A stretch of 5,888 nt of DNA from a virus (lineage: Duplodnaviria > Heunggongvirae > Uroviricota > Caudoviricetes), in IMG/VR virus record IMGVR_UViG_2648501400_000014, one strand, 5' to 3'. A program made the translations under genes and the position numbers. Numbering within the stretch: the first letter of the stretch is position 1; every line of letters begins with the position of its first letter. Under the pieces are notes generated by a model that worked only from the letters and a program-made list of their open reading frames with translations, was not told the origin of the DNA and did no database searches. Of the stretch, positions 2,084 to 5,888 are shown one piece after another.

Positions 2084-2286
2084 AACCTCACTCCCAGCGG
2101 ACGACGGCGACGCCGGGTTGTCCCCAGTACCGACTCCGCATCATTGATCGCCCGGTTAAGCTCATCCAGAGAAGCCGCCGTATATTCAATTCTGCGACCA
2201 TCTTTCTGGACAGACACCACCCGTTTACCGGTTAATAAATCAAGGCGCGCCTGACGCAGCGCCTGCAGTTCAGCGACTGTAACCAT
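2080..2286 (-). CDS. W: Head-tail joining / head completion protein gpW
   Basis: 68-aa ORF, the same length as lambda gpW. The motif LxxLLTGKRVVSVQKDGRRIEYTAASLDEL and the C-terminal RRRRR tract match lambda W as I recall it ([26 protein letters not shown] ... QRRRG). It lies between terminase A and portal B and overlaps the A stop by 17 nt. Confidence 0.9.
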   Translation of the reverse strand: MVTVAELQALRQARLDLLTGKRVVSVQKDGRRIEYTAASLDELNRAINDAESVLGTTRRRRRPLGVRL

Positions 2287-4198
2287 TCACTCCTCCGGAC
2301 AGCTTCGCTGCCAGTTCTTTCAGGGTTGGCCGGGTCGTCTCTTCTTCCCGGGATTTTGCCAGTACAGCCAGATCAAGCTGCCAGCGTTGCACGGACACAC
2401 GTAATGCCGCGTAGGCATACACCAGGCAGTCCAGCGCTTCGTTACGCCGCTTTTTGTTATCCCACAGCAGACGCATCTTTCCTTTTTCCCACTTCTCCAC
2501 AAGCTCTTCCGCCACCAGTTGCTGCGCCTCTGTCTGCGAAAAAATCTCCGGATCATCAGGAAAACGGATGGCATACGACGTGGCTTCATCCGCAGGAGTG
2601 GGATCGGCTTTCATACGGGCATAGAGAATTTCTTTTGCGGTGTCCGTTCCCACTTCACACAGATACACGCCCCGCTGATTGCGGGTTTTTGGCATGGTGA
2701 TCACCGGCTTGCCATAGACAGATGCGCCTTTTACCGGCAGCACCCGGAAAACACCGTGTTTTTTTGATCTCTGATAAACAATTTCACCATCGATCCCCCC
2801 GGTGTCCCAGCAGACACGGGAAATAGTCATTTCGGTGCCATCCGCATGGCGGTATTTTTTGTTGATCGCCGCATCCACACGTAACAGCGTCTCTTCCTCA
2901 TCAGGACGCCCCATAATGATGATTTTATCCACCAGAAAGGCTTCCTCTCCCGGAGCCCATCCCCAGACATACATCTCAAAACGGTTTCGCTGCGAGTCAA
3001 TGCCCGCCGTCAGATAAACCACCCGGGCAGGCACCGCCGCCGTGTAACGCACCACCTTATCCATCAGTACCTGGTGATCGAGTTTTTCGCCCACGGCCTC
3101 TTCCCAGGTCTCGCCCAGCGTGGTGTTCACAAAGGTTTTCAGGCCGTTGGGATCTTTCAGTGCATCCAGCCAGTCATAGACAATCTGTACCCAGGTGGTG
3201 AACGGACTGTACGCCGTCCAGATATGGAACGTGATGGAGCGCGGCGGCGGAATTTCATCACCCCGGGCGCTGAAAAACGTCAGACCGTCACGGGTCCACA
3301 TGCCCGTGTTTTCACAGATCCACCGCCCGTTGTTCTGGTCAAGCTCAGACTGATGGATCACGCAGCCATGATGTTCACAGAGGTAGAAAACGCTTTCGGG
3401 ACTGTCCTTCTCCCATTTAAGCCCAAAAGGCGTGGACTCATCGCCAAATTTCAGATACTGCGCCTCCCCACAGTGCGGGCAGGGCACATAAAAACGCATA
3501 AAATGCGCCGACTCGTTAGCCGCTTTTTCGATCTGGCAGGTGCCTTTGATTTTAGGCGTCGAGCCGCGAATGGATTTTGGCCACACCGACCCCTCAATAC
3601 GCTTATCCCCCAGCAGGGTTGGCGAGCCCTCTTTTTCGACATCCGGCTCGAACGAGGAAAGTTCGTCATAGCAGACCACGTCCACGGATTTTTCACGGTA
3701 GTTTTTGGCGGCAGCGCCGCCCAGGCACCAGAAACCGACGCCCGATGAAAAGCGTTTCAGCGTGAGGGTATTATCACGATGTTTACGCCCAAACCACGGT
3801 GCAAGATCGAGTAAAACCGGCACATCCCTGATCGTGGGTTCCACATGAGATTTCATAAAATCTTCAGCAGCAGAATCCGTGGGCTGGAAAAGAAGGCTGT
3901 TGCGTGATTTATGCTCAATAAAATAAGCCTCCACTCCCAGCAACATCTTTGTATAACCAACACGGGCAGATTTAATCAGATTAACAGTGCGGATCCGGTC
4001 ATTCCCCATGCTGTTCATGATGGCAACCTGAAACGGCAGTGTTTCCCACCGCCCCGGGGTGTAAGATGACTCTTTCGGAAGGTAATAATGTCGATCTGCC
4101 CACTGAACTGTCGTCAGAGGGACAGGAATTTTTAGCGCAAGGAGGCCGGTTGCTATCGCTCCTGCAGAATTAGCCGCCCTCAGTTCGTCTGAAATCAT
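2270..4198 (-). CDS. A: Terminase large subunit (lambda gpA family; ATPase plus endonuclease)
   Basis: The track ORF 2270..4240 (656 aa) matches lambda gpA along its whole length as I recall it: [20 protein letters not shown], Walker-A-like [135 protein letters not shown] place the start at the third in-frame ATG (4198-4196, MISDEL...). It is preceded by AGGTGGA, gives the same N-terminal spacing to the YYLPKE motif as lambda gpA, and gives a 29-nt overlap with Nu1 (lambda has about 26). The upstream ATGs at 4240 and 4216 lack an obvious Shine-Dalgarno. Confidence 0.93.
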
Positions 4199-4718
4199 CA
4201 ATCCACCTGCGCACATTCTCACCGGCTTCAGAAGCCACATCGGATGCTTTCGCGATTTCAGTTTTCACAGCATCAAGATGTGCGGGTGATATATCAGGGT
4301 ATTTACGCTGCAGTGTCTGAGGGACACGGACAAGGATCCCTGATATATTCTGTGCCACTCGCTGAAAGATGTAGGTAAATAACTCCGTCTCGAGGACAAG
4401 GCCTTCCTCACGAGCATTTTTCAGCTTCTGTGCATCGGCCTGTGCCTTCGTCAGTCGGTAACGTTCGTAATCAATGGTGCCGGGCTGAAGGTCTGATTCG
4501 CTGGCAGCCCTCAAATCCTCGATCTCTTTACGGAGTTTTTCGTTTTCAATATCAGATTCCCTCTGCGCATACCACTGAATGGCAGCAGTTGTATCAAAAA
4601 CTGATTCAGTCCCTTTCCCTCCACCAGAAACTAGTGGTAACCCCTGACTCTGCCAGGCGGTGATGGTCCTGACATCAACGCCAAAAATATCGGCCAGTTT
4701 TTTCTTATTGACGTTCAT
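4170..4718 (-). CDS. Nu1: Terminase small subunit (lambda gpNu1 family; N-terminal winged-HTH cosB-binding domain)
   Basis: 182-aa [106 protein letters not shown] is colinear with lambda Nu1 ([103 protein letters not shown], from memory). The C-terminal third is diverged. GGGGGAG lies just upstream of the ATG. It is the first gene downstream of cos, as in lambda. Confidence 0.93.
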
Positions 4719-4737
4719 ACACTCCCCCGGGAACCAG

Positions 4738-4748
4738 AAAGGATCTGA
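4738..4748 (+). repeat. cosB R1-like element (AAAGGATCTGA); candidate terminase small-subunit binding site
   Basis: Exact 11-mer aaaggatctga. Its reverse complement recurs at 4780..4790 and a 10/11 copy lies at 4838..4848. Position (between cosN and the Nu1 start) and alternating orientation parallel lambda R1/R2/R3. In phage orientation it reads TCAGATCCTTTCT, resembling lambda R1 CGTTTCCTTTCT. Confidence 0.6.
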
Positions 4749-4779
4749 AAATGGCGTTTTCTAACAAAAACAGCCTTTG

Positions 4780-4790
4780 TCAGATCCTTT
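4780..4790 (-). repeat. cosB R2-like element (inverted copy of AAAGGATCTGA)
   Basis: tcagatccttt is the exact reverse complement of 4738..4748, giving an 11-bp perfect inverted repeat with a 31-bp spacer. Analogous to the inverted lambda R2/R1 pair. Confidence 0.6.
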
Positions 4791-4813
4791 TATATTTTTA
4801 AAATTCTATTGAT

Positions 4814-4826
4814 AATCAAACAGTTA
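4814..4826 (+). promoter_or_regulatory. IHF-consensus site (I1-like) inside cosB
   Basis: aatcaaacagtta fits WATCAANNNNTTR exactly. It sits in an AT-rich tract between the R3-like and R2-like elements, which is where lambda I1 sits. Confidence 0.5.
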
Positions 4827-4837
4827 AAAAGAAGAAG

Positions 4838-4848
4838 AACGGATCTGA
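4838..4848 (+). repeat. cosB R3-like element (aacGGATCTGA)
   Basis: 10/11 match to the 4738..4748 element in the same orientation. In phage orientation it reads TCAGATCCGTTCTTCTTC, which contains the CCGTTCTTCTTC string that I recall at lambda R3. Confidence 0.55.
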
Positions 4849-4887
4849 TTTTTCCCTAAAAATTTTCATAAATAGCGAAAACCCGCG

Positions 4888-4899
4888 AGGTCGCCGCCC
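4888..4899 (-). other. cosN: 12-nt cohesive-end sequence (GGGCGGCGACCT on the phage top strand), terminase nicking site
   Basis: The plus strand reads aggtcgccgccc, the reverse complement of the lambda cohesive end. A surrounding core of about 44 bp (4859-4905; phage orientation ACGGGGCGGCGACCTCGCGGGTTTTCGCTATTTATGAAAATTTT) is identical to the lambda cos sequence as I recall it. It lies about 170 bp upstream of Nu1. Confidence 0.85.
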
Positions 4900-4935
4900 C
4901 GTAGCCTGCCGGATCGCCGGAAAGGACCCAATAAA

Positions 4936-4952
4936 ATGATAATAATTATCAT
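4936..4952. repeat. cos-proximal palindrome atgataat-a-attatcat (cosQ/I2-region element)
   Basis: Perfect 8-bp inverted arms with a 1-nt centre, about 37 bp on the right-end side of cosN. Lambda carries a similar palindrome (GATAATGATTATC) at the equivalent place, from memory. Confidence 0.5.
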
Positions 4953-5137
4953 TTATATAAATACCATCACACATCCCACGTACACCATAAAACCACGACA
5001 AATAATCAATTTTGTCCAAGTCATGCATTAATTGATCTGTGTCAACTTAACGTAAAGACATCTTAAGACAATACAAATCAGCAGCACTGAACACGGAAAA
5101 ACACAATGTCATCAAAAAATAAAGCTTCCCAAACCAG

Positions 5138-5278
5138 ATGATTAATCAAATCCATATTGCCCTTGAACGTAAGGGATCGGGTAATTTTTCGGCATGGGTT
5201 ATTGAAGCCTGCAGGAGAAGGCTGGCAACAGATGCAAAGCACCTGCGCCCGGCCAGCATGAAAAATAACGAGAAATGA
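5138..5278 (+). CDS. Small hypothetical protein (46 aa), ribbon-helix-helix-like helix-loop-helix remnant; possibly truncated or pseudogenised
   Basis: Hand-translated ATG..TGA ORF not in the supplied track: MINQIHIALERKGSGNFSAWVIEACRRRLATDAKHLRPASMKNNEK. It matches the C-terminal part of a small ORF at the equivalent lambda right-end position (…RNIRFPNQMIEQINIALEQKGSGNFSAWVIEACRRRL…, from memory). No Shine-Dalgarno is evident; the start overlaps the stop of an 11-codon upstream ORF (5106..5141) in an ATGA arrangement. Confidence 0.4.
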   Translation: MINQIHIALERKGSGNFSAWVIEACRRRLATDAKHLRPASMKNNEK

Positions 5279-5410
5279 ACGTTCGGTTACAGGAACCGGT
5301 AGCTACTGTCTTCTAACAATATTTCATCTTCATATCCGGCGAAACAAGACTTTACCCTGCAGGGATGTACTGAATAGCAACAGAGTGATAATTAACTTCT
5401 GATAAAATAA

Positions 5411-5737
5411 TCAGGGTGCTGAAGGACTAAAGATAAATGTTTTCTTCACGCCTTTACGCGGCTTGTCCTTCTCAAATCGCCATTTTGCCATCGCCTTTAC
5501 AACCTGCTCATCAAACAGATGGTGCGGCTCTGAACGGATAAACTCAATTCGGGTGACAGTACCATCAGCACCAATATCAAACTTCACATCAACCCGTCCC
5601 TTTATATAATTTGCCGCGGCATAGGCCGGATATTGTGGTAATGCCTTAACCAACTGTCGAGGCATATCTGTTTTATGTTGCGTACAGCCCATAACCAAAG
5701 AAGACAACAAAATAATTAACGGAAGATTTCTTTTCAT
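5411..5737 (-). CDS. Predicted lipoprotein consisting only of a TonB C-terminal-like domain (about 108 aa); candidate phage moron
   Basis: Track ORF 5411..5752(-). The start is more likely the internal ATG at 5737, giving MKRNLPLIILLSSLVMGC: a basic n-region, hydrophobic core and a lipobox-like VMGC with Thr at +2. The remainder, LPQYPAYAAANYIKGRVDVKFDIGADGTVTRIEFIRSEPHHLFDEQVVKAMAKWRFEKDKPRKGVKKTFIF, aligns with the E. coli TonB C-terminal domain (…[71 protein letters not shown]…), sharing PQYPA, G.V.VKFD, DG.V, F.E.V..AM..WR.E..KP. There is no TonB-like transmembrane anchor or Pro-rich spacer. Stop is TGA at 5413-5411. Confidence 0.8.
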   Translation of the reverse strand: MKRNLPLIILLSSLVMGCTQHKTDMPRQLVKALPQYPAYAAANYIKGRVDVKFDIGADGTVTRIEFIRSEPHHLFDEQVVKAMAKWRFEKDKPRKGVKKTFIFSPSAP

Positions 5738-5757
5738 TTTTATTCCCGGCATAGATA

Positions 5758-5774
5758 AGAATAAGTCTTATTCT
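5758..5774. promoter_or_regulatory. Palindrome agaataag-t-cttattct immediately upstream of the lipoprotein gene (candidate operator or 5' UTR hairpin)
   Basis: Perfect 8-bp inverted arms with a 1-nt spacer, ending 21 nt upstream of the 5737 ATG on the coding strand. Confidence 0.4.
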
Positions 5775-5829
5775 AACAATGCAGCCCTGTCGGTCATTAG
5801 ACTGGCCCCCTGAATCTCCAGACAACCAA

Positions 5830-5876
5830 TATCACTTAAATAAGTGATAGTCTTAATACTAGTTTTTAGACTAGTC
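5830..5876. promoter_or_regulatory. Cluster of palindromes (tatcactta-aa-taagtgata; tagtct..agacta; actagt; gactagtc): candidate operator sites
   Basis: Read directly: a 9-bp-arm inverted repeat at 5830-5838/5841-5849; tagtct (5848-5853) paired with agacta (5868-5873); the self-complementary hexamer actagt (5858-5863) and octamer gactagtc (5869-5876). All lie about 100-140 bp upstream of the lipoprotein start. Confidence 0.4.
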
Positions 5877-5888
5877 ATTGGAGAGCAG

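What the first reader, a model, noticed from the sequence alone, without database searches (positions are those of the whole stretch)
5411..5752. Stand-alone TonB C-terminal-domain lipoprotein encoded at the phage right end: candidate TonB mimic
The gene encodes a lipoprotein-type signal peptide (MKRNLPLIILLSSLVMGC, Thr at +2, so outer-membrane sorting is expected by the E. coli +2 rule) fused directly to a domain that aligns residue-for-residue with the TonB C-terminal domain, which in TonB binds the TonB box of TonB-dependent outer-membrane transporters (FhuA, BtuB, FepA, CirA and others). It lacks the TonB N-terminal membrane anchor and proline-rich spacer, so it cannot transduce energy, but it keeps the Q-YP and WR motifs of the box-binding region. 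It sits in the cos-proximal right-end segment where lambda carries different genes, which is a typical moron location. My hypothesis is that it is a periplasmic, membrane-tethered decoy that competes with TonB for TonB boxes and so blocks TonB-dependent phage (T1- or phi80-like) or colicin/bacteriocin entry; this would be functionally analogous to Cor or Llp, which target FhuA, but by a different mechanism. I cannot verify novelty without a database search.
Basis: partly seen in the sequence, partly recalled or inferred. Interest (0 to 1): 0.85.

Follow-up and report, generated by a model that had tools for sequence, protein, structure and literature searches.

The report
Prophage lipoprotein made of TonB's C-terminal domain
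A lambdoid prophage gene just upstream of cos encodes a small outer-membrane lipoprotein that is essentially only the receptor-binding end of the host energy transducer TonB; the gene is real, conserved and already annotated in about 30% of complete E. coli genomes, but its function, plausibly jamming TonB-dependent phage and colicin entry, has not been tested in anything I could find.

Summary
Window 5411-5737 (- strand) encodes a 108-aa protein. It has a lipoprotein signal (lipobox LVMG-C18, Thr at +2), an 8-residue tether and a TonB_C domain (Pfam E=2.7e-15). The domain aligns without gaps, at 40% identity, to E. coli TonB 153-231. The AF2 model superposes on TonB from the BtuB and FhuA complexes at 1.2-1.5 A. 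There is no membrane anchor, Pro-rich spacer or second hydrophobic segment.

The gene lies about 510 bp upstream of cosN, between the lysis cassette and Nu1. It has low GC (43%) and is under purifying selection (dN/dS 0.13 between two clades).

It is not new as an object. It is identical to the E2348/69 'TonB family protein', and 1616 of 5426 complete E. coli genomes match. Phage 21 carries it as 'TonB C-terminal domain protein'. EDL933-style annotation calls it 'partial tonB-like'. PHROGs labels the family 'Rz-like spanin', which the anatomy contradicts.

Related lipoproteins of about 110 aa sit in non-phage chromosomal contexts in Klebsiella, Raoultella, Serratia and Erwinia.

The decoy idea is plausible but untested. 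TonB Q160 is Leu here, and V225/V226 are Lys. I found no functional study.

The parts
5411..5737 (-). Coding sequence of the 108-aa stand-alone TonB_C lipoprotein (stop codon at 5411-5413). The alternative upstream ATG at 5752 is not conserved.
   Evidence: It is 100% identical to E2348/69 WP_000828067.1.
5684..5737 (-). Signal peptide MKRNLPLIILLSSLVMG plus the lipobox Cys18 (codon at 5684-5686). Thr at +2 predicts outer-membrane sorting.
   Evidence: Pattern match and conservation of the Cys across the family. The +2 sorting rule is established knowledge. Lipidation was not tested.
5663..5683 (-). Short tether (TQHKTDM, residues 19-25) between the lipid anchor and the domain. It stands where TonB has its spacer.
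   Evidence: Comparable short tethers occur in homologues: the domain starts at residue 25-37 in all of them.
5426..5662 (-). TonB C-terminal domain, residues 26-104, equivalent to E. coli TonB 153-231.
   Evidence: Pfam and TIGRFAM hits, gap-free PDB alignment, AF2 model and Foldseek search.
5770..5797 (-). Candidate sigma-70 promoter of the gene's own: -35 ATGACC at 5792-5797 and extended -10 TGtTAGAAT at 5770-5778. The -10 element is conserved in clades A and B.
   Evidence: This is a consensus match only: 5 sites were found against 3.3 expected by chance. Conservation is the main argument.
5798..5888 (+). Context: the end of an IS3-family element (IS2-like from my recollection of its terminal sequence), inserted 60 bp upstream of the start codon. 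It is absent from the E2348/69 reference.
   Evidence: The match to E2348/69 stops at window 5797. The 99-bp end occurs a median of 3 and up to 41 times per genome. It abuts an 'IS3 family transposase' gene.
4888..4899 (-). Context: cosN, which marks the right end of the packaged phage genome.
   Evidence: Exact match to lambda GGGCGGCGACCT. Nu1 lies immediately downstream.
5138..5278 (+). Context: a convergent small gene of the DUF3950 / YlcI-YnfO family. It accompanies the TonB_C gene in clade A prophages.

Best explanation
Shown. This is an intact gene under purifying selection, carried by lambdoid prophages in the variable segment between the lysis cassette and cos/terminase. Its product is a lipoprotein signal followed, after a tether of about 8 residues, by a complete TonB C-terminal domain. 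It has none of the parts that let TonB transduce energy: no ExbB/ExbD-coupled membrane anchor and no proline-rich spacer.

Inferred. [quoted passage not shown] This holds the domain at the periplasmic mouths of TonB-dependent transporters. A conserved extended -10 element suggests it has its own promoter and is made in lysogens.

Proposed mechanism, inference only. The tethered, un-energised domain engages the same partners as TonB's C-terminal domain. These would be TonB-box strands of transporters or of incoming group B colicins, bound by edge-strand pairing, or possibly the C-terminal domain of TonB itself. It thereby competes with TonB and damps TonB-dependent uptake. This would give the lysogen partial protection against TonB-dependent phages, colicins and microcins. 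It would be a natural version of the dominant-negative periplasmic TonB fragments made in the laboratory.
For: Domain and fold.

Six of the seven TonB C-terminal residues found functionally important by Cys scanning are identical and the seventh is conservative. Y163, F180, G186, F202, W213, Y215 and F230 (PMC3005593) correspond to Y36, F53, G59, F75, W86, F88 and F103. The columns invariant across the whole small-lipoprotein family are, with one exception, residues shared with E. coli TonB.

The lipobox Cys, a short tether and a non-Asp +2 residue are conserved from the E. coli prophage clades to the Klebsiella, Serratia and Erwinia homologues.

dN/dS is 0.13 with dS of about 1.5 between clades A and B.

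The position is constant, after Rz/Rz1 and before the terminase. This holds across different packaging modules (Nu1/A; HNH plus terminase) and in a Klebsiella phage. The gene sits beside the lipoprotein moron bor/iss. Its GC is 43% against 53-56% for the structural genes.

The extended -10 is conserved in otherwise divergent upstream regions.

Precedent: over-expression of the periplasmic TonB domain inhibits import, and TonB binds transporters even when inactive or not intact.
Against: No binding, localisation, expression or phenotype data exist for any family member that I could find.

Positions proposed to touch the TonB box differ (contact positions): Q160L (Tyr in clade B), V225K, V226K, K231S. 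R166, which I recall as a FhuA contact, is Tyr. On the helix face that contacts barrels and TonB boxes in vivo, R204 is Glu and N208 is Lys.

Homologues at 38-52% identity lie in housekeeping-type chromosomal neighbourhoods with no phage or iron genes: lacZ-lacI, ycgN-dsbB, araBA. This suggests an ancestral function other than phage exclusion.

A general TonB block should cost iron uptake. Yet the gene is common in EPEC, EHEC, APEC and UPEC.

No PADLOC defence model matches.
Confidence: 0.4

Rival explanations
1. The protein is an envelope or host-fitness lipoprotein that uses the TonB_C fold as a generic periplasmic binding module for another partner, such as peptidoglycan or a non-transporter outer-membrane protein. 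The phage copy would be a lysogenic-conversion gene of the Bor/Iss type, affecting envelope robustness, serum or stress resistance rather than TonB competition.
For: Chromosomal homologues in Klebsiella, Raoultella, Serratia and Erwinia lie in non-phage, non-iron contexts. In Klebsiella and Raoultella they sit next to a glycine-zipper lipoprotein gene. The family has its own conserved features not found in TonB: SEP(H/Q)xLFD, and Lys at the V226 position. In APEC and phage 21 the gene is adjacent to iss/bor. The family forms a clade apart from TonB proper in a rough NJ tree.
Against: No alternative partner is indicated by any result. The family's invariant residues are nearly all TonB residues, including ones that are poorly conserved among TonBs generally but conserved in enterics. 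[quoted passage not shown]
Confidence: 0.3
2. The protein is a late or lysis-associated product. It could be a spanin-type component, as PHROG 1267 labels the family, or an accessory that acts on the envelope at or after lysis.
For: PHROG 1267 'Rz-like spanin' matches over the full length with E=3.4e-42. The gene lies downstream of, and on the same strand as, the S-R-Rz cassette. It is predicted to be an outer-membrane lipoprotein, like the o-spanin Rz1.
Against: The carrier phages have their own Rz (PF03245) and, in phage 21, an Rz1 (PF06085). The protein has no N-terminal membrane anchor with a coiled coil (i-spanin) and no C-terminal membrane segment (u-spanin). It is not embedded in or overlapping Rz, and is separated from Rz by 0.3-1 kb that often holds opposite-strand genes. 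The curated phage 21 record calls it 'TonB C-terminal domain protein', not a spanin. Chromosomal homologues have no lysis genes nearby.
Confidence: 0.05
3. The gene is a non-functional captured fragment of host tonB ('partial tonB-like'), carried passively.
For: Older annotations describe it as 'partial tonB-like membrane protein' or 'TonB fragment'. It covers only the last ~40% of TonB.
Against: dN/dS is 0.13 at saturating dS. A lipoprotein signal has been added and is conserved. The 108-aa ORF is intact in hundreds of genomes. The host tonB gene was not matched at the nucleotide level: the 'distant' blastn hit only 1616 of 5426 genomes. The family is distinct from TonB proper.
Confidence: 0.02

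Closest known systems
C-terminal domain of E. coli TonB (residues ~150-239; PDB 1U07, and 2GSK and 2GRX in complex with BtuB and FhuA)
   Same: Same Pfam and TIGRFAM domain and the same alpha-beta-beta-alpha-beta fold. The alignment is gap-free at 40% identity. Y163, P164, F180, G186, F202, W213 and F230 are conserved, and Y215 is replaced by Phe.
   Different: There is no N-terminal ExbB/ExbD-coupled anchor and no Pro-rich spacer. The domain is anchored through a lipoprotein signal, to the outer membrane by prediction. The protein ends at the equivalent of TonB residue 235. Changed positions: Q160L, R166Y, V225K, V226K, K231S, R204E. All NCBIfam TonB equivalog models score far below their cut-offs, for example 74 against 315 bits.
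Phage 21 CPT_21_73 'TonB C-terminal domain protein', and RefSeq 'TonB family protein' of E. coli prophages (including 'partial tonB-like membrane protein encoded within prophage CP-933N')
   Same: Same family and architecture: 108 aa, lipobox, TonB_C. Same position between Rz/bor and cos. Clade B is 70% identical. The E2348/69 protein is 100% identical.
   Different: Nothing essential; this window's gene is a member. None of these has an assigned function in the records.
Cor (phi80, N15) and Llp (T5): phage lipoproteins that inactivate the TonB-dependent transporter FhuA for superinfection exclusion
   Same: These are small phage-encoded proteins acting on a TonB-dependent transporter. Llp is described as a lipoprotein of the inner leaflet of the outer membrane that binds FhuA (abstract of bioRxiv 10.64898/2026.03.26.714494). 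Cor is described as inactivating FhuA (PMC11436027). This is the proposed functional analogy.
   Different: No sequence relationship was detected; the Pfam scan at E<=1 returned only TonB_C and TonB_2. The fold and the proposed mode are different: mimicry of the energy transducer rather than receptor-specific binding. The gene travels with the lysis-cos segment across phages that have different packaging and head modules, so nothing ties it to the carrier phage's own receptor.
Engineered periplasmic TonB fragments (Howard et al. 2001, J Bacteriol 183:5885, as cited in PMC9841981)
   Same: These are a TonB periplasmic or C-terminal domain delivered to the periplasm without the energy-coupling anchor. 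They are reported to inhibit transporter-mediated iron import.
   Different: They are laboratory constructs, soluble and over-expressed. The natural protein here is lipid-tethered and has diverged to 40% identity. I could not read the primary paper.
Bor / Iss lipoprotein morons of lambdoid phages
   Same: Outer-membrane lipoprotein genes in the same Rz-to-cos segment. They are adjacent to this gene in APEC IMT5155 and phage 21.
   Different: No homology: there is no Bor-family hit. bor/iss lies on the opposite strand.

Membership tests
TonB energy transducer (NCBIfam TonB equivalogs; functional TonB) | N-terminal cytoplasmic-membrane signal anchor that couples to ExbB/ExbD | tested here: not met
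   The N-terminus is a cleavable lipoprotein signal ending in LVMG-C18. Alignment to TonB begins at TonB residue ~151-153.
TonB energy transducer (NCBIfam TonB equivalogs; functional TonB) | Proline-rich periplasm-spanning spacer | tested here: not met
   Only 7 residues (TQHKTDM) lie between Cys18 and the start of the domain.
TonB energy transducer (NCBIfam TonB equivalogs; functional TonB) | Score above the curated whole-protein cut-off of a TonB equivalog model | tested here: not met
   The best is NF008084 at 74.2 bits against a cut-off of 315. All five PRK10819 models fall below their cut-offs.
TonB_C domain family (PF03544 / TIGR01352) | Domain HMM score above the gathering threshold | tested here: met
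   PF03544 scores 57 bits against 24.6. TIGR01352 scores 56.9 against 27.1.
TonB_C domain family (PF03544 / TIGR01352) | Three-stranded sheet packed against helices, as in solved TonB C-terminal domains | tested here: met
   The AF2 model has H38-42, E47-55, E61-70, H76-85 and E94-103. Foldseek TM is 0.86-0.91 and rmsd 1.2-1.6 A to 1u07, 2gsk_B and 2grx_C.
TonB_C domain family (PF03544 / TIGR01352) | Binding of TonB-box strands of TonB-dependent transporters | not testable with these tools
   No complex prediction or binding assay was available. Contact positions are partly changed.
Bacterial lipoproteins sorted to the outer membrane | Signal peptide with a lipobox and invariant Cys | tested here: met
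   The PROSITE-style pattern matches at residues 8-18. The Cys is conserved in both E. coli clades and in the Klebsiella, Raoultella, Serratia and Erwinia homologues. No LipoP or SignalP run was possible.
Bacterial lipoproteins sorted to the outer membrane | No Asp at +2 (Lol-avoidance signal absent) | tested here: met
   The +2 residue is Thr here, and Ser, Ala or Thr in all homologues inspected. Actual localisation was not tested.
Spanins (the PHROG 1267 label 'Rz-like spanin') | i-spanin: N-terminal membrane anchor plus coiled-coil periplasmic domain. u-spanin: lipoprotein signal plus C-terminal membrane segment | tested here: not met
   There is no hydrophobic segment after residue 20; the maximum KD(15) is 0.53. 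The fold is TonB_C, not a coiled coil.
Spanins (the PHROG 1267 label 'Rz-like spanin') | o-spanin: a small lipoprotein gene embedded in, overlapping or abutting the i-spanin gene, and the only spanin set of the phage | tested here: not met
   The carrier phages have a separate Rz (PF03245) and, in phage 21, an Rz1 (PF06085). The TonB_C gene lies 0.3-1 kb further downstream.
Cor / Llp-type superinfection-exclusion lipoproteins | Sequence homology to Cor or Llp | tested here: not met
   The Pfam scan at E<=1 gave only TonB_C and TonB_2. The PHROGs scan gave only phrog_1267 and phrog_34172.
Cor / Llp-type superinfection-exclusion lipoproteins | Blocks infection through a TonB-dependent transporter | not testable with these tools
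   This requires plating and adsorption assays.
Known anti-phage defence systems (PADLOC) | Match to a defence-system protein model | tested here: not met
   No PADLOC hit at E<=0.1.

The most novel reading that the evidence does not exclude
The protein is a natural, phage-borne dominant-negative mimic of TonB. [quoted passage not shown] Lysogens would become resistant to TonB-dependent phages, colicins and microcins. This would be an exclusion mechanism aimed at the shared energy-coupling step rather than at one receptor. The chromosomal homologues in Klebsiella and Serratia would then be endogenous brakes on TonB-dependent uptake.
Probability: 0.3. Interest if true: 0.75.

Novelty: new variant of a known kind. 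Interest (0 to 1): 0.5.

Why it matters
If the decoy reading is right, a gene that matched in about 30% of complete E. coli genomes would be a broad-spectrum exclusion factor. Carriers include EPEC, EHEC and Stx1a phages, APEC and UPEC, and the classical phage 21. The factor would act on the common TonB step and would be a natural protein inhibitor of the TonB system. This bears on phage-therapy host range, on colicin and microcin ecology in the gut, and on siderophore-antibiotic uptake. It would also give a function to a family of small TonB_C lipoproteins in Klebsiella, Raoultella, Serratia and Erwinia. If the reading is wrong, the family still shows the TonB_C fold reused as an outer-membrane-tethered module. 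It would also correct a misleading 'Rz-like spanin' label in PHROGs. The tests are simple and the strains (phage 21, E2348/69) are standard.

Tried and rejected
1. Ten full-text literature searches found no study of this protein. They covered prophage/TonB-like/lipoprotein, phage-encoded TonB, superinfection exclusion, 'TonB family protein', moron, accession numbers and 'tonB-like membrane'. The primary paper of Howard et al. 2001 is not held.

2. The spanin label (PHROG 1267) is rejected on anatomy and on the presence of separate Rz/Rz1 genes.

3. Recent capture or a fragment of host tonB is rejected.

4. A Fur box upstream was considered. The 17-bp palindrome AGAATAAGACTTATTCT (5758-5774) matches the Fur consensus in only about 11 of 19 positions by my hand alignment. 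It is lost in clade B through a 13-bp deletion. It is not pursued as iron regulation.

5. The upstream ATG (113-aa form) is rejected because it is not conserved.

6. A locus search with the 14-sequence alignment failed for lack of a conserved stretch. A narrower alignment worked.

7. Foldseek against viral structures (BFVD) gave nothing at E<=0.001.

8. PADLOC gave no hit.

9. The terminator scan found none in window 4700-5888.

10. The promoter scan is not significant on its own: 5 sites against 3.3 expected.

Full report
**What the window is.** The window is the cos-spanning end of a lambda-like prophage read in reverse. All on the - strand are portal (491-2083), a head-tail joining gene (2080-2286), terminase large subunit (2270-4240) and Nu1 (4170-4718; PF07471, E=1.9e-85). 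An exact lambda cosN, GGGCGGCGACCT, lies at 4888-4899 (-). Everything to the right of about 4900 is therefore the right end of the packaged genome. Positions 4700-5797 are 99.9% identical to a prophage of EPEC E2348/69 (NC_011601).

**The observation.** The ORF at 5411-5752 (-) is real. The first ATG (5752) is not conserved: relatives have GTG there or a 13-bp deletion. The second ATG (5737), with its AGGAATAAAAATG context, is conserved in both clades.

Residues 1-18 (MKRNLPLIILLSSLVMGC) satisfy a PROSITE-style lipoprotein pattern. The +2 residue is Thr.

Residues 26-104 are a TonB_C domain. PF03544 scores E=2.7e-15, 57 bits against a cut-off of 24.6. TIGR01352 scores 56.9 against 27.1. They align without a single gap to E. 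coli TonB 153-231, with 32 of 79 residues identical.

An AlphaFold2 model has pLDDT 78-93 over residues 31-108. It superposes on TonB taken from the BtuB and FhuA complexes at 1.5 A over 79 columns and 1.2 A over 77 columns, with TM 0.89-0.91.

The mature protein has no other hydrophobic segment. It has no counterpart of TonB's membrane anchor or proline-rich spacer. Only seven residues separate Cys18 from the domain. All NCBIfam TonB equivalog models score far below their cut-offs.

**One correction.** With the offset of query residue n = TonB residue n+127, the 'PQYP' glutamine is TonB Q162. TonB Q160 is Leu33 here and Tyr in clade B. Q160 is the classical TonB-box contact and suppressor site. 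From my own recollection of the genetics, Q160L is itself a suppressor allele. The 158-162 region is dispensable for TonB activity. The change therefore does not argue strongly either way.

**Is it a working gene?** Yes. Two clades exist in E. coli. Clade A is this gene, with signal MKRNLPLIILLSSLVMGC. Clade B has MKRRLLLLFLLSVLAVGC and is 70% identical.

Of 5426 complete E. coli genomes, 1616 have a match: about 415 at 95% nucleotide identity or more (clade A level) and about 1200 at 60-80% (clade B level). Almost all are annotated 'TonB family protein'. IMG/VR holds at least 218 viral contigs with the gene.

Between clades, dS is about 1.5 but dN/dS is 0.13. The lipobox Cys and the whole domain core are invariant. 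The 'distant' blastn matched only 1616 of 5426 genomes, so it did not pick up the host tonB gene that every strain carries. This is therefore not a recently captured or decaying tonB fragment, despite old labels such as 'partial tonB-like membrane protein encoded within prophage CP-933N' and 'TonB fragment'.

**Genomic position.** In every phage or prophage inspected the gene lies between the lysis cassette and the small terminase subunit, on the late-gene strand. This holds whichever packaging module follows:
- Nu1/A cos type in E2348/69, APEC IMT5155 and phage 21.
- HNH plus terminase type in JLK-2012 and O145 RM12761.

In APEC and in phage 21 it sits next to the lipoprotein moron iss/bor. 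Its GC content is 43%, against 53-56% for the portal and terminase genes.

The upstream regions of clades A and B differ widely. They share TTGT(T/C)AGAATAAGAC, which is an extended -10 (TGnTAGAAT; window 5770-5778), and the ribosome-binding region. This suggests, but does not prove, the gene has its own promoter. The promoter scan alone is not above chance.

**A wider family.** An exhaustive HMMER search of 1.84 billion representatives found full-length matches, signal peptide included, to other proteins of about 110 aa at 34-51% identity. Most of these have a lipobox and none inspected has Asp at +2.

A scan of species-representative genomes placed them in Klebsiella, Raoultella, Serratia and Erwinia. 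Their neighbourhoods are ordinary chromosomal ones:
- lacZ-lacI, a glycine-zipper lipoprotein gene and DUF1440 in Klebsiella and Raoultella.
- minCD ... ycgN, then the gene, then dsbB-nhaB-fadR in Serratia.
- araBA in Erwinia.
- EAL and GNAT genes in a second Raoultella copy.

A Klebsiella temperate phage carries a 41% homologue, again between its lysis genes and terminase.

A rough NJ tree places all these lipoproteins together and apart from TonB proper. The architecture is therefore a conserved family of Enterobacterales, not a phage-only invention: lipobox, a short tether, then TonB_C (domain start at residue 25-37). In E. coli the family is prophage-borne.

**What it is not.** PHROGs assigns the family (phrog_1267, full-length match, E=3.4e-42) the label 'Rz-like spanin'. 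This does not survive inspection:
- The carrier phages have their own Rz (PF03245) and, in phage 21, Rz1 (PF06085).
- The protein has neither an i-spanin anchor with a coiled coil nor a u-spanin C-terminal membrane segment.
- The curated phage 21 record calls it 'TonB C-terminal domain protein'.

No PADLOC defence model matches. There is no Bor, Cor or Llp homology.

**How it most likely works.** The composition is shown. The rest is inference.

The +2 rule predicts outer-membrane sorting. [quoted passage not shown]

Six of the seven TonB C-terminal residues found functionally important by Cys scanning are identical and the seventh is conservative: Y163, F180, G186, F202, W213, Y215 and F230 (PMC3005593; mapping). 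The columns invariant across the whole lipoprotein family are almost exactly the residues shared with E. coli TonB. [quoted passage not shown] Their conservation could therefore reflect the fold rather than recognition.

Published precedent supports the idea that an un-energised C-terminal domain binds transporters and can compete. Over-expressed periplasmic TonB domain inhibits iron import (Howard et al. 2001, as cited in PMC9841981). [quoted passage not shown]

I therefore rank the competitor or decoy mechanism first. A variant is that the target could be TonB's own C-terminal domain. From my own knowledge, TonB is far scarcer than its transporters, which would make it the more economical target.

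**Against the decoy mechanism.**
- Positions proposed to contact the FhuA TonB box differ (V225K, V226K, K231S, Q160L), and Lys at the V226 position is largely conserved across the family alignment.
- The hydrophilic helix face that crosslinks to FepA is altered: R204E, N208K, R212K.
- The chromosomal homologues suggest a housekeeping role.
- A general TonB block should be costly in iron-limited hosts, yet the gene is common in pathogens.
- No expression, localisation, binding or phenotype data were found.

My confidence in the full mechanism is about 0.4. An unrelated envelope or fitness role is the main rival at about 0.3.

**Novelty and verdict.** The object is known to databases. It is identical in E2348/69, present in phage 21, Stx1a phages and CP-933N-type prophages, and named 'TonB family protein'. 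Within the limits of ten full-text searches of open-access papers and bioRxiv, its function is unstudied.

It differs from TonB in architecture and, by prediction, in membrane location. It differs in fold and proposed mode from the known receptor-blocking lipoproteins Cor and Llp. I file it as a new variant of a known kind (phage lysogenic-conversion or exclusion lipoproteins; TonB_C domain proteins).

Interest is moderate (0.5): it is a clean, cheaply testable hypothesis on a very widespread gene, but there is no direct evidence yet.

Noticed in passing
window 5798-5888: The last 91 bases are the end of a multi-copy IS3-family element (IS2-like from my recollection of its terminal sequence). 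It is inserted 60 bp upstream of the TonB_C start codon and directly abuts the predicted -35. The E2348/69 reference and the other close matches lack it at this site. The insertion would cut the gene off from late-operon read-through.
   Followed up: partly
window 5758-5774: A perfect 17-bp AT-rich palindrome, AGAATAAGACTTATTCT, overlaps the candidate -10 and the start of the 5' UTR in clade A. Half of it is removed by a 13-bp deletion in clade B. It is only a weak match to a Fur box by hand alignment, so any operator role is unknown.
   Followed up: partly
window 4937-4951 (- strand): A perfect palindrome, TGATAATTATTATCA, lies about 40 bp upstream of cosN, next to where phage 21 has cosQ annotated. 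From memory the same sequence is at lambda's right end. It also equals the 7-1-7 Fur-box consensus as I recall it. This was not examined.
   Followed up: no
window 5138-5278 (+): A 46-aa DUF3950 / YlcI-YnfO family gene is convergent with the TonB_C gene. The same small gene accompanies it in the clade A prophages inspected and precedes the Nu1 homologues. Its function is unknown.
   Followed up: partly
PHROGs phrog_1267 (matched by window 5411-5737): The PHROG that corresponds to this family is labelled 'Rz-like spanin' (category lysis). The anatomy, and the presence of separate Rz/Rz1 genes in the carrier phages, contradict this. It is probably an annotation carried over from neighbouring lysis genes.
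   Followed up: yes
L007 7998-9301 and L103 1277-5336: The Klebsiella/Raoultella chromosomal locus pairs the TonB_C lipoprotein with a DUF1440 (YagU-like) membrane protein. A Klebsiella temperate phage carries homologues of both, at 56% and 61% identity. This is either a functional pairing or a sign that the chromosomal locus is a relic of phage cargo.
   Followed up: partly
P0143: An unrelated 152-aa lipoprotein (lipobox LAGC) has a ~40-residue acidic or Ala-rich linker and a C-terminal domain much closer to TonB proper. It appears to be an independent case of a lipid-anchored TonB C-terminal domain. Its organism and context are unknown.
   Followed up: no
one search hit list (e.g. P0034, P0037, P0043): Many of the best non-family hits are long proteins (350-1300 aa) with 3-5 tandem TonB_C-like stretches. 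They were not examined.
   Followed up: no
L014 (Modestobacter excelsi contig of 418 bp): A 418-bp contig in an actinobacterial assembly encodes the N-terminal 67 residues of the protein at 70% identity, which is clade B level. It is most likely E. coli prophage contamination of that assembly.
   Followed up: no
L003 4354-4802: In the E2348/69 prophage the portal gene is followed directly by fragments of an S49 peptidase gene and an NlpC/P60 gene, then tail-tip genes. Most head and tail genes are missing, so the carrier prophage is defective there. The window's left edge (1-490) lies in this junction.
   Followed up: no
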